Shown here piece after piece: positions 1 through 57,010 of a DNA stretch of 64,000 nucleotides (positions are counted from its first letter, which is position 1; every line of letters begins with the position of its first letter). The notes under the pieces are model-generated. The model searched no databases. It was not told the origin of the DNA and saw only the letters and a list, made by a program, of their open reading frames with translations. The stretch is from an uncultured Acidobacteriota bacterium. GTDB taxonomy: Bacteria > Acidobacteriota > Vicinamibacteria > Vicinamibacterales > UBA2999. Position numbers and translations under genes: made by a program. Where the stretch lies: assembly GCA_963841905.1 (NCBI GenBank), contig CAWJEM010000022.1:92835-156834 (forward strand). Reading direction: 5' to 3'.

Positions 1-1198
1 GCTTTCGGTGAGCATCTGACGTACGAGCCGTCCCCGCCGCGCGCCAAGCGCCCCACGCATCCCGACCTCTCGCGTGCGCGCGGCGCTCCGCGCGAGCAGC
101 AGATTCGCGACGTTGACGCAGGCCACCACGAGGACGAGCGCCACCGCACCCGCGAGCGTGAGCAGGGCGGGCCGAATCTCTCCGACCATCTGATCCTGCA
201 GGCGGAAGAGCATCACGGAGCGTCCCGCATTCCGCTGCGGTTCCTCCCGCTCGAGCGCGGCGTAGATCGCCCGCATCTCGGTGGAGGCGTCGTCGAACGA
301 CAGACCGTCACGCAGGCGCGCGATGGCGTACGAGCCCCCGCGCCCCAGGTACCGCGCGAAGCTGTTCCGTCGTGAGGCCATACGGCATCAGGAAATCGGC
401 GTGCTGCCCGGCGATCGTGAAGCGCGGCGGCATGATGCCGATCACCGTGCGGCGCTCTCCGTCCGTGGTCAGCGTCAGGTCGAGCACGTCGGGCCTGCCG
501 CCCAACGCTCGCTGCCAGAATTCGTGACTGAGCACCATCACGGAGGTGCCGCCGTCTTCCGCGGCGGTGTAGGCGCGTCCGCGTGCCGGCGCAACACCCA
601 AGGCGCGAAACACCTCGGACGAGGCACTGAGCCCGGCAATCTGGAGCGGCTCGCCATTCAGCGTGATGGCGACAGACCGCGACCCCACCATCGCGAGATG
701 CTCGAGGGTCTGAACGCGCTCTCGCCAGGCGACGAAGTTGGCTGGCGCGATCGAATTGCGATTGACGCCGCCGCGAGTCGTTTCCCAGACGGCCACGATT
801 CGCTCGGGCTCGCGATAGGGCAACGGCTCGAGCATCACCGTGCGGATCACACTGAACATCGCGGCGGTCGCGCCGACGCCGAGTGCGAGCGTCAGCAACG
901 CCGGAACCGTGAACCCTGGGGTGCGGAGGAACGACCGCACGCCGAACCGCAGATCCTGCACCACGCTATCGATGTGTGCTTCCCACCCGACATCGCGCAC
1001 GCGGTCTTTAATCGCCTCGACGCTGCCGACCTCGACGCGTGCCGTTCGCGTCGCCACTTCGCGCGGCAATCCCGAGGAGATCTTCTGTTCGATGGCCATG
1101 TCCAGATAGGCGCGCAGCTCCTCGTCGAGTTCGCGTTCGACGCGGTTTTTCCAAACGAGCGCACGAAGACCCGACACAAGGCGATTAAGACGCCTCAT
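1..1198 (-). pseudogene. ADOP-family (MacB/FtsX-like, duplicated) ABC permease; 3' end lies beyond the window; frame broken near 350-365
   Basis: From ATG 1196-1198 (ATGA overlap with the padR stop), ORF 308..1345 reads MRRLNRLVSGLRALVWKNRVERELDEELRAYLD...LALGVGATAAMFSVIRTVMLEPLPY, a canonical ADOP N-terminus, and stops at 308. My translation of another minus frame of 1..360 continues YLGRGGSYAIARLRDGLSFDDASTEMRAIYAALE...VACVNVANLLLARSAARTREVGMRGALGA (FtsX TM region). Confidence 0.85.
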
Positions 1199-1545
1199 CA
1201 CAGTTCCCCTGGTGCAGCTCTTAGAATGCGCGCGATGGCCGAAGTCTGCAGTTCCCAGTCGCGCGTCTCCCGTTTCAGACCGGCACGTCCCTCGGCGGTG
1301 AGCGTGTAGTACTTCGCGCGGCGATTGTTCTCGCTGGTCCGCCACTCACCGACAATCAGACCGTCACGCTCCAGGCGCCGCAGGGCTGGAAAAAGCGAGC
1401 CCGCGTTGACATGAAAGACGCCCCTGCTGATCTGCTCCAGGCGCACACCGATGCCGTAGCCGTGCATCGGCTCCAGCGCGAGCGTCTTGAGAATAAGCAT
1501 GTGCAGCGTTCCCTGCACGAGGTCCCGCTGTTCTCCTCTAGTCAA
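1198..1545 (-). CDS. PadR family transcriptional regulator
   Basis: 115 aa: LVQGTLHMLILKTLALEPMHGYGIGVRLEQISRGVFHVNAGSLFPALRRLERDGLIVGEWRTSENNRRAKYYTLTAEG is a typical PadR winged helix. TTG start. Its stop overlaps the permease ATG. Confidence 0.95.
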   Translation of the reverse strand: MTRGEQRDLVQGTLHMLILKTLALEPMHGYGIGVRLEQISRGVFHVNAGSLFPALRRLERDGLIVGEWRTSENNRRAKYYTLTAEGRAGLKRETRDWELQTSAIARILRAAPGEL

Positions 1546-1580
1546 TCTAGATGGGAAGCATATAATACTTCTCTAGATTG
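1543..1580. promoter_or_regulatory. Inverted repeat CAATCTAGA-N20-TCTAGATTG around a TATAAT hexamer; candidate PadR operator/promoter
   Basis: 9-bp perfect arms at 1543-1551 and 1572-1580, with TATAAT at 1561-1566. AT-rich island in GC-rich DNA directly upstream of (and overlapping) the padR start. Confidence 0.5.
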
Positions 1581-1642
1581 TCAAGAGGAGCGTTCCCGAC
1601 CGAGTCGTGTTGGTTTGGACCGCCACCGCCCACCGGCCAGTG

Positions 1643-55592: not shown

Positions 55593-55593
55593 C

Positions 55594-56535
55594 TCATGAT
55601 TCCCTGTGCCCTCCAAACTGTGCACGCATGGCTGACAGCATCCGGTTGGCGAAATCGTCCTGGCCGCGCGAGCTGAAGCGTCCGAAGAGCGCGGCGGCGA
55701 GCACGGGAACAGGAACTGCGGCATCGATGGCGACATGCGCCGTCCAGCGCCCTTCGCCCGAGTCGCCGACGCGGCCCTCGAAGGCTCCCAAAGCAGGGTC
55801 TTCGGCCAGGGCGCGCGCCGTCAGGTCCAACAGCCACGAGCCGATGACGCTGCCTCGCCGCCACAATTCAGCAACCTCGGGGAGATCGAACTCGTATTCG
55901 GGCGCGTGCTCCAGCAGGTTGAAGCCCTCCGCGTAGGCGGCCATCAGGCCGTACTCGATCGCGTTGTGAACCATCTTGACGAAGTGGCCGGCGCCATGGC
56001 TGCCGCAGTGCAAGTAGCCGTACTCGGCCGGCGTGGGCTCGCCGTCGTCGGCCAGTCGAGGCGCCGCATCGATCCCGGGGGCGAGGGCGCGAAAAATCGG
56101 GTCGAGACGTCCGACCACGTCGGGGTTCCCACCAATCATCAGGCAGTAGCCGCGCTCAGCTCCCCAGATTCCGCCGCTCGTGCCGACATCGACGTATTCA
56201 ATCTGACGAGCGCCCAGACGCGCGGCTCGCGCCGTATCGAGCTTGTAGTGAGAGTTCCCGCCATCGATGACCACGTCACCCGCCGACAGCAGCGGCTGCA
56301 ACGCATCGATCGTCGCGTCGACGACGGTGTCGGGCACCATGATCCAGACGGCGCGCGGTGTGCGCAGTTGATGGATCAGTTCCACCAGGCTTGTCGCCGG
56401 CGCGACCCCCTCGCGTAATAGCGCGGCAGCAGTGTCGGGGCTGCGGTCGTAGGCGATGACCTGATGACCACCCTTCACGAGTCGGCGCGACATGTTGGCA
56501 CCCATGCGGCCGAGGCCGATCATTCCGATTTGCAT
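55594..56535 (-). CDS. gnd: 6-phosphogluconate dehydrogenase, decarboxylating (short Gnd/YqeC type)
   Basis: MQIGMIGLGRMGANMSRRLVKGGHQVIAYDR...VIDGGNSHY...VDVGTSGGIWGAERGYCLMIGG...GAGHFVKMVHNAIEYGLM. ATG 56535; the track ORF extends to 56646. Confidence 0.9.
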   Translation of the reverse strand: MQIGMIGLGRMGANMSRRLVKGGHQVIAYDRSPDTAAALLREGVAPATSLVELIHQLRTPRAVWIMVPDTVVDATIDALQPLLSAGDVVIDGGNSHYKLDTARAARLGARQIEYVDVGTSGGIWGAERGYCLMIGGNPDVVGRLDPIFRALAPGIDAAPRLADDGEPTPAEYGYLHCGSHGAGHFVKMVHNAIEYGLMAAYAEGFNLLEHAPEYEFDLPEVAELWRRGSVIGSWLLDLTARALAEDPALGAFEGRVGDSGEGRWTAHVAIDAAVPVPVLAAALFGRFSSRGQDDFANRMLSAMRAQFGGHRES

Positions 56536-56596
56536 TCCAGCATTATCCGCGGATCGAGCGCCGCCACTTCGGAGCAGATCGTTGGCCTGGCAGCGA

Positions 56597-57010
56597 ATGA
56601 CAACACGCGTACAATTCGGAGCGGTGAAGCGCTTCAAAGATCTCACCGAACGCGAGTTGGTGGCTCTGGCGATCTCGCTCGAGGAAGAGGACGAGCGGGT
56701 CTACGCCGACTTTGCCGAGGGCTTTCGCGAGCACTATCCGGCGACGGCGCAGGTCTTCGCTGCGATGCAAAGCGAAGAATCAGAGCATCGACGCGCGCTC
56801 ACGGAGCTGTTTCGCGAACGGTTCGGCGAGCACGTCCCGCTGATTCGCCGTCAGGACGTCAAGGGCTTCGTGGCGCGACGTCCGCTGTGGCTGACTAGTC
56901 CACTCCGCGTCGAGGCGGCGCGTGCGCAGGTGTCGGCGATGGAGCTCGAGAGGCGACTCGCCATCGGCTCTTCGTACTGCAGGTCGTTCAGCCGGCGCTC
57001 GCCGGGTTGA
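56597..57010 (+). CDS. Ferritin-like (erythrin/CCC1-N type) domain protein; possibly the N-terminal part of the VIT1 gene that follows
   Basis: MTTRVQFGAVKRFKDLTERELVALAISLEEEDERVYADFAE...MQSEESEHRRAL...VSAMELE gives one E...ExxH pair plus a third-helix E. The tail RRLAIGSSYCRSFSRRSPG looks out of frame. Confidence 0.55.
   Translation: MTTRVQFGAVKRFKDLTERELVALAISLEEEDERVYADFAEGFREHYPATAQVFAAMQSEESEHRRALTELFRERFGEHVPLIRRQDVKGFVARRPLWLTSPLRVEAARAQVSAMELERRLAIGSSYCRSFSRRSPG

What the first reader, a model, noticed from the sequence alone, without database searches (positions are those of the whole stretch)
1..57010. At least 12 single-base frameshifts in conserved genes, at short homopolymers and clustered: probably consensus errors
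The broken genes are the ADOP permease (about 355), the DNA methyltransferase (about 1950 and 2510), hutU (about 9889), an M20 peptidase (about 33365-33405), the tricorn protease (about 42839, 42883, 43441, 44062, possibly about 46040), the monooxygenase/reductase (about 52566 and 53691), zwf (about 54211) and possibly VIT1 (56899-57008). Where I could reconstruct the event it is +/-1 in a 2-3 nt run: GG to G in hutU, an extra G at 53691, an extra T in TTT in zwf, an extra T at 44062, CC for CCC at 42839. On both sides of each break the sequence is still clearly conserved with no other decay, and the breaks cluster (0-3 kb, 42.8-46 kb, 52.5-57 kb). Housekeeping genes such as zwf and hutU are unlikely to be real pseudogenes. 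Every pseudogene call in this window should therefore be treated as provisional.
Basis: partly seen in the sequence, partly recalled or inferred. Interest (0 to 1): 0.6.

Follow-up and report, generated by a model that had tools for sequence, protein, structure and literature searches.

The report
Assembly-error frameshifts, partly at GTAC sites
About ten conserved genes in this window are really split by small insertions or deletions, but nearly all of these are almost certainly consensus errors of a long-read assembly, many next to the motif GTAC, and not real gene loss.

Summary
Three-way comparison with two same-genus genomes shows at least 15 small indels specific to this assembly in 9-10 genes, plus 4 intergenic ones. 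The VIT1 break is a 154-nt deletion, not a single base.

They are most likely consensus errors of a long-read-only assembly (about 0.88).
- The rate is genome-wide, about 0.8 per 10 kb of coding DNA, or about 450 in all.
- The closest relative (95% identity) has its own, different set. Fragmented, short-read-like relatives show none in 181 kb.
- 110 of 143 clean indels are 1 nt and only 6 are 3 nt.
- Broken genes keep a normal third-codon-position bias (69% against 65%), and their segments hold no in-frame stops.
- Indels pile up at contig ends and in redundant contig overlaps.

"At short homopolymers" does not hold: run lengths match chance. Instead the indels are 8-fold enriched at GTAC (11 seen, 1.4 expected, p = 2e-7; genome-wide z = 6). 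This resembles methylation-linked base-calling error. Clustering is marginal in the window (p = 0.06) but clear on the contig.

The scan has found the same artefact class in many other genomes, at other motifs.

The parts
1..1345 (-). ADOP/MacB-FtsX-type permease. The N-terminal part is ORF 311-1345. The gene runs on leftwards out of the window to about -1439.
   Evidence: the N piece holds MacB_PCD 4-176/207. The next-frame piece holds FtsX, MacB_PCD and FtsX.
332..358 (.). Zone of the ADOP frameshift. It contains C5 and C4 runs and CAGGTACC. The exact base is not resolved because no syntenic relative exists here.
   Evidence: the frames read ...EQLRAVPGARG... and ...GRGGSYAIARLRDG...
1649..2913 (-). 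N6/N4 DNA methyltransferase, split into three frames.
   Evidence: the 439-aa G008 protein aligns in frames -2, -3 and -1.
1937..1938 (.). 2-nt deletion compared with both relatives.
2515..2515 (.). Extra G (GG to GGG).
   Evidence: G000-derived.
8963..10629 (-). hutU (urocanate hydratase), in two frames.
9889..9890 (.). One base missing directly after GTAC (CGTAC-AGC).
33065..34502 (+). M20 peptidase, in two frames.
33404..33405 (.). Extra G in CAG[G]TAC. Removing it gives GANGPVLLMAHLD, which matches G008.
39818..39818 (.). Extra A directly after GTAC, 66 nt from the stop of minus-strand ORF 39752-40627.
42718..46292 (+). Tricorn-type protease (1116-1122 aa in relatives). It lies in three frames, and its end is read through.
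42840..42877 (.). Compensating pair: -1 at 42841 and +C at 42877, so 12 codons are out of frame.
43442..43442 (.). Extra G one base before CGTACG.
44064..44064 (.). Extra base in CACGT[T]ACGG, possibly GT[T]AC.
46037..46040 (.). Probable -1 in a G run, two codons before the stop. The ORF then runs on to 46292.
   Evidence: Inference: the sequence diverges just after this point.
51636..53971 (+). FAD monooxygenase fused to an OYE-type FMN reductase (784 aa in G008), in three frames.
52523..52590 (.). 12-nt GQV-repeat linker holding a +1, best placed at A 52560 (GGGCGG[A]GTGGG).
53692..53692 (.). Extra G in CAG[G]TAC.
54012..55467 (+). zwf (glucose-6-phosphate dehydrogenase), in two frames. The start codon was not determined.
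54222..54223 (.). Extra A (CACGA[A]TGC).
56620..57426 (+). Fusion gene of a ferritin-like (rubrerythrin) domain and VIT1.
   Evidence: Rubrerythrin profile positions 1-97 here, against 1-136 in G008.
56949..56953 (.). Junction of a 154-nt deletion (51 codons plus 1 nt) with CGAG/GA microhomology. This is a different class of lesion, and whether it is real or an artefact is undecided.
10715..10715 (.). Intergenic 1-nt deletion specific to this assembly. Three more such intergenic indels lie at 27747, 34510 and 39314, all +1.

Best explanation
The breaks are consensus (assembly) errors of an error-rich, long-read-only assembly, most likely a Nanopore-type metagenome-assembled genome. Wherever read support was thin or the base-caller was systematically misled, one base was added or dropped. 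A sizeable minority of the errors sit at or next to GTAC, often as an extra G giving CAGGTAC. This is what happens when a short motif is methylated in the cell and the base-caller mis-segments the signal there.

The genes themselves (hutU, zwf, tricorn protease, M20 peptidase, monooxygenase-OYE, ADOP permease, methyltransferase) are most likely intact in the organism.

Shown here: the indels, their polarity, their rate, their size spectrum, the GTAC enrichment, the lack of relaxed selection and the dependence on the assembly. Inferred: the sequencing platform, the GTAC methylation, and the claim that reads would not support the indels.
For: 1. Genome-wide rate. Homology finds 42 frameshift junctions in 552 kb of aligned coding DNA, or 0.76 per 10 kb. 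Contig C24 has 0.61 and the window's contig C22 has 1.4. The reference-free scan finds 1.38 frameshift-like switches per 10 kb, against a floor of 0.52 in G009.
2. The load is assembly-specific.
  - In the same 60 kb, relative G005 (95% nt identity) has about 15 frameshifts in other genes. G008 is intact at all of the window's sites.
  - Rates per 10 kb are G005 1.8, G000 0.76, G008 0.46 and G004 0.40.
  - Fragmented assemblies G009 and G002 show 0 in 181 kb, where 13.7 would be expected at G000's rate.
3. Size spectrum. Of 143 clean-flank indels against G005, 110 are 1 nt and 6 are 3 nt, in DNA that is about 95% coding.
4. No relaxed selection. Window-branch substitutions in the five broken genes fall 36/23/132 by codon position (69% third). 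In 18 intact genes they fall 87/37/229 (65% third). Every frame segment of the tricorn, hutU, monooxygenase-OYE and zwf genes, and two of the three MTase segments, lies inside an open ORF, so these segments hold no nonsense codons.
5. No depletion in the most conserved genes: 4 in 34 kb at 93% or higher aa identity.
6. GTAC signature.
  - 11 of 110 indels touch GTAC, against 1.4 expected, p = 2e-7.
  - 1-nt gaps run at 4.6 per kb near GTAC, against 1.1-1.8 for ten other palindromes.
  - Genome-wide, GTAC is the only one of 16 palindromic tetramers enriched near frameshift-like junctions, z = 6.
  - At window position 35255, G005 and G008 both carry the same extra G before GTAC, while the window keeps the frame.
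7. Frameshift-like switches fall from 2.3 per 10 kb in the terminal 2 kb of contigs to 1.2 in the interior. Nine G000 indels lie in the first 5 kb of C22.
8. Redundant contig-end overlaps (C3/C10, C3/C6, C13/C14) differ mainly by 1-nt indels.
9. Literature. Nanopore-only MAGs carry frameshifting indels below about 40x coverage (PMC9262707). About 70% of consensus errors can sit in a methylation motif (PMC6591954). Methylation-induced errors are also reported in PMC11610573 and PMC11610603.
Against:
- The platform and the GTAC methylation are inferred. 'Short-read-like' for G009 and G002 rests only on their contig counts.
- Published methylation-linked Nanopore errors are mostly substitutions, whereas these are indels. 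Only about 10% of contig-wide indels, and 6-7 of the 16 single-base events in the window, are GTAC-linked. The rest look like random low-coverage errors.
- The multi-hit genes (tricorn with 5, monooxygenase-OYE with 2, MTase with 2) are also what real pseudogenes look like.
- The 154-nt VIT1 deletion is not a typical consensus error.
- rpoB and rpoC are intact, although only about 0.7 hits were expected there.
Confidence: 0.88

Rival explanations
1. The frameshifts are real, very recent mutations. The lineage is undergoing unusual gene decay and these are true pseudogenes.
For: - Several genes carry more than one lesion (tricorn 5, monooxygenase-OYE 2, MTase 2). This is expected once a gene is already dead.
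- rpoB and rpoC are intact in all five genomes checked.
- The indels are clustered on the contig.
Against: - Substitutions on the window's branch in the broken genes are 69% third-position, the same as in intact genes.
- There are no nonsense codons in the gene segments.
- None of the lesions is shared with the 95% relative, which has its own set.
- The same load is found genome-wide, and also in the most conserved genes.
- There is an excess at contig ends and between redundant contig copies.
- Fragmented assemblies of the genus have none.
- This is a 5.6-Mb, 64% GC genome with about 95% coding density.
Confidence: 0.04
2. Mixed picture. Nearly all the single-base indels are errors, but the 154-nt deletion in the ferritin-like/VIT1 gene is a real structural variant, a slippage deletion between short repeats.
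For: - The deletion is 154 nt with CGAG/GA microhomology at the junction.
- It removes Rubrerythrin profile positions from about 98 to 137.
- Its size is unlike the 1-nt class that makes up 110 of 143 indels.
Against: Long-read assemblers also produce deletions of this size in thinly covered or strain-mixed regions. The deletion lies in the error-dense stretch from 52.5 to 57 kb. No read evidence is available.
Confidence: 0.35
3. Programmed or tolerated recoding. The cell reads through the shifts by ribosomal frameshifting or transcriptional slippage, so the split genes are functional as written.
For: At 35255 two relatives share the same frame switch.
Against: - The sites share no slippery motif, and they include both +1 and -1 changes in unrelated contexts.
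- The sites are not conserved. Each assembly has its own.
- The shared 35255 site sits at the error-prone CAGGTAC context.
Confidence: 0.01

Closest known systems
Frameshifting indel consensus errors in Nanopore-only genomes and MAGs (Sereika et al. 2022, PMC9262707; IDEEL-type truncated gene calls)
   Same: Single-base indels scattered over the whole genome split otherwise conserved genes. The load differs from assembly to assembly. It is worse where support is thin, as at contig ends.
   Different: The classic description stresses homopolymers. Here the run lengths match chance. The platform and coverage of this assembly are unknown.
Methylation-motif-linked Nanopore base-calling and consensus errors (Dcm CCWGG in Wick et al. 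2019, PMC6591954; Lohde et al. 2024, PMC11610573; PMC11610603)
   Same: Errors concentrate at one short palindromic motif. They recur at the same site in independent assemblies of related organisms.
   Different: The motif is GTAC. The errors are indels, while the published cases are mostly substitutions. Only a minority of the events are motif-linked. Methylation of GTAC was not shown here.
Genuine mass pseudogenisation in decaying genomes (for example Mycobacterium leprae and recent endosymbionts; from general knowledge)
   Same: Many conserved genes are interrupted by frameshifts, and some carry several lesions.
   Different: There is no relaxed selection, no nonsense codons, no lesions shared with the closest relative and no loss of coding density. 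The distribution follows contig ends and the assembly type.

Membership tests
Long-read consensus indel errors | The indels are not supported by the reads, or vanish on polishing. | not testable with these tools
Long-read consensus indel errors | Single-base indels dominate regardless of reading frame. | tested here: met
   110 indels of 1 nt against 6 of 3 nt, among 143 clean indels in DNA that is about 95% coding.
Long-read consensus indel errors | The load depends on the assembly, not on phylogeny. Close relatives carry different sets. | tested here: met
   Rates run from 0 in 181 kb (G009 and G002) to 1.8 per 10 kb (G005).
Long-read consensus indel errors | The indels are blind to selection: no depletion in conserved genes and no relaxed selection in the hit genes. 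| tested here: met
Long-read consensus indel errors | The indels are enriched where coverage is thin, as at contig ends. | tested here: met
   2.3 against 1.2 frameshift-like switches per 10 kb. There is a cluster in the first 5 kb of C22. Contig overlaps differ by 1-nt indels. Coverage itself was not available.
Long-read consensus indel errors | Homopolymer bias (R9-type errors). | tested here: not met
   The run-length distribution equals random expectation.
Methylation-motif-linked base-calling errors | Errors are enriched at one specific short motif. | tested here: met
   GTAC: 11 seen against 1.4 expected, p = 2e-7. Genome-wide z = 6, and it is the only one of 16 palindromes enriched. 4.6 against 1.1-1.8 gaps per kb.
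Methylation-motif-linked base-calling errors | The motif is actually methylated in the organism. | not testable with these tools
   This needs raw signal or modified-base calls. An N6/N4 methyltransferase gene lies in the window, but its specificity is unknown.
Genuine pseudogenes / genome decay | Relaxed selection after inactivation, with codon positions hit equally and nonsense codons present. | tested here: not met
   69% of substitutions are at third positions in the broken genes. The gene segments lie in open ORFs.
Genuine pseudogenes / genome decay | Lesions are inherited and therefore shared with the closest relatives. | tested here: not met
   All of the window's lesions for which an outgroup exists are G000-specific.
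Programmed frameshifting | A conserved slippery site at a conserved position. | tested here: not met
   The contexts are diverse and each assembly has different sites.

The most novel reading that the evidence does not exclude
The GTAC-linked indels are real mutations. A GTAC-specific restriction enzyme of this genus occasionally cuts its own chromosome, and error-prone end joining leaves +/-1 scars at or beside GTAC, giving a motif-directed mutational hotspot. The evidence does not strictly exclude this for the GTAC subset. However, several findings argue against it. The indels sit at varying offsets around the motif. The identical insertion recurs in two other assemblies. Selection leaves no footprint. 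And the whole class is absent from fragmented assemblies.
Probability: 0.02. Interest if true: 0.6.

Novelty: not a real feature. Interest (0 to 1): 0.12.

Why it matters
This matters mainly for data quality. About 450 genes of this public genome, and more in its closest relative, would be annotated as pseudogenes or as split proteins. That distorts metabolic reconstruction (hutU, zwf), pan-genome counts and protein databases. Frame-aware correction or re-polishing is needed before any claim of gene loss.

There is one small positive by-product. The GTAC error footprint predicts that this genus methylates GTAC, and this can be checked from the raw signal.

Tried and rejected
- Conspecific intact allele: a search with the hutU C-terminal piece found only proteins of 93% identity or less. 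No second assembly of this species is on hand. It did confirm that the family is normally one protein of 525-527 aa.
- Essential genes: rpoB and rpoC are intact in G000, G005, G008, G009 and G004. Only about 0.7 hits were expected in 8.5 kb, so this decides nothing.
- Genome-wide count of in-frame stops inside tblastn matches: 126 were found. The number is contaminated by 5' extensions of stop-to-stop ORFs, by shadow frames and by matches running past frameshifts, so it was not used.
- Homopolymer hypothesis: rejected.
- Other palindromic motifs (GATC, CCGG, CATG and others): no enrichment.
- Mismatches near GTAC are raised (7.3% against 4.6%), but so are those near TGCA and CCGG, so this is not specific.
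- First frameshift counts in relatives were inflated by 5' ORF extensions and by chimeric open frames. The criteria were tightened. The two calls in G001 both come from one G000 query at the error-rich end of C22 and are probably G000's own errors.
- The Pfam scan of plus-strand ORFs at 1-1309 found nothing because the ADOP gene is on the minus strand. It was repeated correctly.
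Full report
**What the window is.** The window is G000:C22:92835-156834 of a 5.58-Mb, 24-contig, 63.5% GC assembly. Two same-genus genomes are syntenic over nearly the whole window. 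G005 has about 95% nucleotide identity and 20 contigs. G008 has about 80% identity and 20 contigs. This allowed a base-level three-way comparison.

- Pfam shows that the pieces of hutU and zwf abut in profile coordinates. It also shows that the ADOP, monooxygenase-OYE, tricorn and ferritin-like/VIT1 genes are split.
- Intact G008 proteins align to the window in two or three frames for the methyltransferase, hutU, M20 peptidase, tricorn protease, monooxygenase-OYE fusion, zwf and the VIT1 gene.
- Alignments place the events as follows:
  - MTase: 1938 (-2 nt) and 2515 (+G)
  - hutU: 9889/9890 (-1)
  - M20: 33404/5 (+G)
  - tricorn: 42841 (-1), 42877 (+1), 43442 (+1), 44064 (+1) and 46039/40 (-1, which removes the stop)
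  - monooxygenase-OYE: about 52560 (+1, in a repeat linker) and 53692 (+G)
  - zwf: 54222/3 (+A)
- The ADOP gene is on the minus strand. Its shift lies within 332-358.
- The VIT1 break is a 154-nt deletion with microhomology, not a single base.
- At 35255 the roles are reversed. The window keeps the frame, while G005 and G008 both carry an extra G before GTAC.

**Polarity and the relatives.**
- Outgroup and coding-frame methods agree on which genome changed: 13:1 and 20:1.
- Over contig C22, about 39 small indels are derived in G000 and about 40 in G005.
- In the very region where the window is broken, G005 is broken in about 15 other genes. At all of the window's sites G008 is intact.

**Genome-wide load.**
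- Proteins of five relatives were used as probes. G000 shows 42 frameshift junctions in 552 kb of aligned coding DNA, or 0.76 per 10 kb. C24 has 0.61 and C22 has 1.4.
- A reference-free codon-usage Viterbi scan gives 768 frameshift-like frame switches, or 1.38 per 10 kb. The floor is 0.52-0.65 in G009 and G001.
- Both methods imply roughly 450 frameshifts in the genome, so the window is not special.
- The load by assembly, per 10 kb, is G005 1.8, G000 0.76, G008 0.46 and G004 0.40.
- The fragmented assemblies G009 and G002 (420 and 380 contigs) show 0 in 181 kb, where 13.7 would be expected at G000's rate.
- That these two are short-read assemblies is my inference from their contig numbers.

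**Signature of the indels.**
- Of 143 clean-flank indels between C22 and G005, 110 are 1 nt and only 6 are 3 nt, although about 95% of the contig is coding.
- There is no homopolymer excess.
- GTAC is over-represented 8-fold at the indels: 11 seen against 1.4 expected, p = 2e-7, the top of all tetramers.
- 1-nt gaps occur at 4.6 per kb around GTAC, against 1.1-1.8 for ten other palindromes.
- Across the whole genome, GTAC is the only one of 16 palindromic tetramers enriched near frameshift-like junctions, z = 6.
- In the window, 9890, 33404, 39818, 43442, 44064 and 53692, and perhaps the ADOP site, touch GTAC. They are often an extra G giving CAGGTAC.

**Selection tests.**
- Substitutions specific to the window's branch in the five broken genes fall 36/23/132 on codon positions 1/2/3. 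In 18 intact genes they fall 87/37/229.
- The tricorn gene, with five indels, has 13/2/54.
- Each frame segment of the tricorn, hutU, monooxygenase-OYE and zwf genes, and two of the three MTase segments, lies in an open ORF, so these segments hold no nonsense codons.
- Frameshifts are not rarer in the most conserved genes.

**Position in the assembly.**
- Frameshift-like switches fall from 2.3 per 10 kb in the terminal 2 kb of contigs to 1.2 beyond 50 kb.
- G000-derived indels on C22 are strongly clustered, with 9 in the first 5 kb. Inside the window the clustering is marginal, p = 0.058.
- The assembly contains redundant contig-end overlaps (C3/C10, C3/C6, C13/C14, C5/C17). In the three larger overlaps the copies differ largely by 1-nt indels.

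**Interpretation.** All lines point to consensus errors of a long-read-only assembly. One component is random, from thin coverage. The other is systematic and tied to GTAC, as expected if GTAC is methylated and the base-caller was not trained on it. Both phenomena are known.
- Nanopore-only MAGs carry frameshifting indels below about 40-fold coverage (PMC9262707).
- A methylation motif can hold about 70% of consensus errors (PMC6591954; see also PMC11610573 and PMC11610603).
- Earlier notes of this scan report the same artefact class at GANTC, CCGG and GATC in other genomes, and 'gene wreckage' elsewhere in this genome. I did not test those claims.

**Limits.**
- The platform and the methylation are inferred.
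- The 154-nt VIT1 deletion may be a real variant.
- Real decay is left at about 4% and recoding at about 1%.

**Verdict.** The finding is an artefact.

Noticed in passing
window 35240-35270 (and G005, G008 homologous sites): At 35255 the window keeps a continuous frame (…SSRPAQYDGDMRWDIARPALVERFGD…). G005 and G008 both carry the same extra G before GTAC, which splits the gene. This is a recurrent identical indel in two other assemblies. The end of this gene overlaps the start of a small conserved gene (MCRNIKTLANF…) in another frame.
   Followed up: partly
G000:C22:61653-69432 and 69435-77232 (about 15.6-31.2 kb upstream of the window): A directly abutting 7.8-kb tandem duplication at 97.9% identity, with 132 mismatches and 16 indels, 13 of them 1 nt. 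A second one lies at C13:30824-35703/35700-40584. These could be real duplications or assembly artefacts.
   Followed up: partly
G000 contig ends: C3:17277-36715 = C10:1-19414; C3:1-10223 = C6:10237-1; C13:130607-137045 = C14:1-6404; C17:43672-46379 = C5:19292-21992: Contigs overlap one another by 2.7-19 kb at 97-99.3% identity. About 38 kb of the assembly is therefore redundant, from unmerged overlaps or strain variants.
   Followed up: partly
window 52523-52590: The linker between the FAD-monooxygenase and OYE halves of the fusion protein is a 12-nt tandem repeat (GGGCAGGTA/G, giving GQVGQVGQV…). Its copy number differs between G000, G005 and G008.
   Followed up: partly
window 12258-12520, 7733-7843, 13826-13942, 36326-36487, 40585-40671, 55466-55611, 62826-63068: Short intergenic elements, many built of GAACC/AAGAACC-like units, match dozens of places in both relatives at 70-100% identity. 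This is a dispersed repeat family of the genus, and it is very indel-variable between genomes.
   Followed up: no
window 1198-1545 and 1-1345 (minus strand): A PadR-family regulator sits directly upstream of the ADOP permease, which is the usual pairing. G005 and G008 have no syntenic copy of this block. Synteny starts at about 1611.
   Followed up: no
public protein hits P0051, P0061, P0092: Several urocanase hits of only 313-335 aa lie on long contigs (37-509 kb) in ENA assemblies. This suggests the same kind of split hutU in other public long-read assemblies.
   Followed up: no
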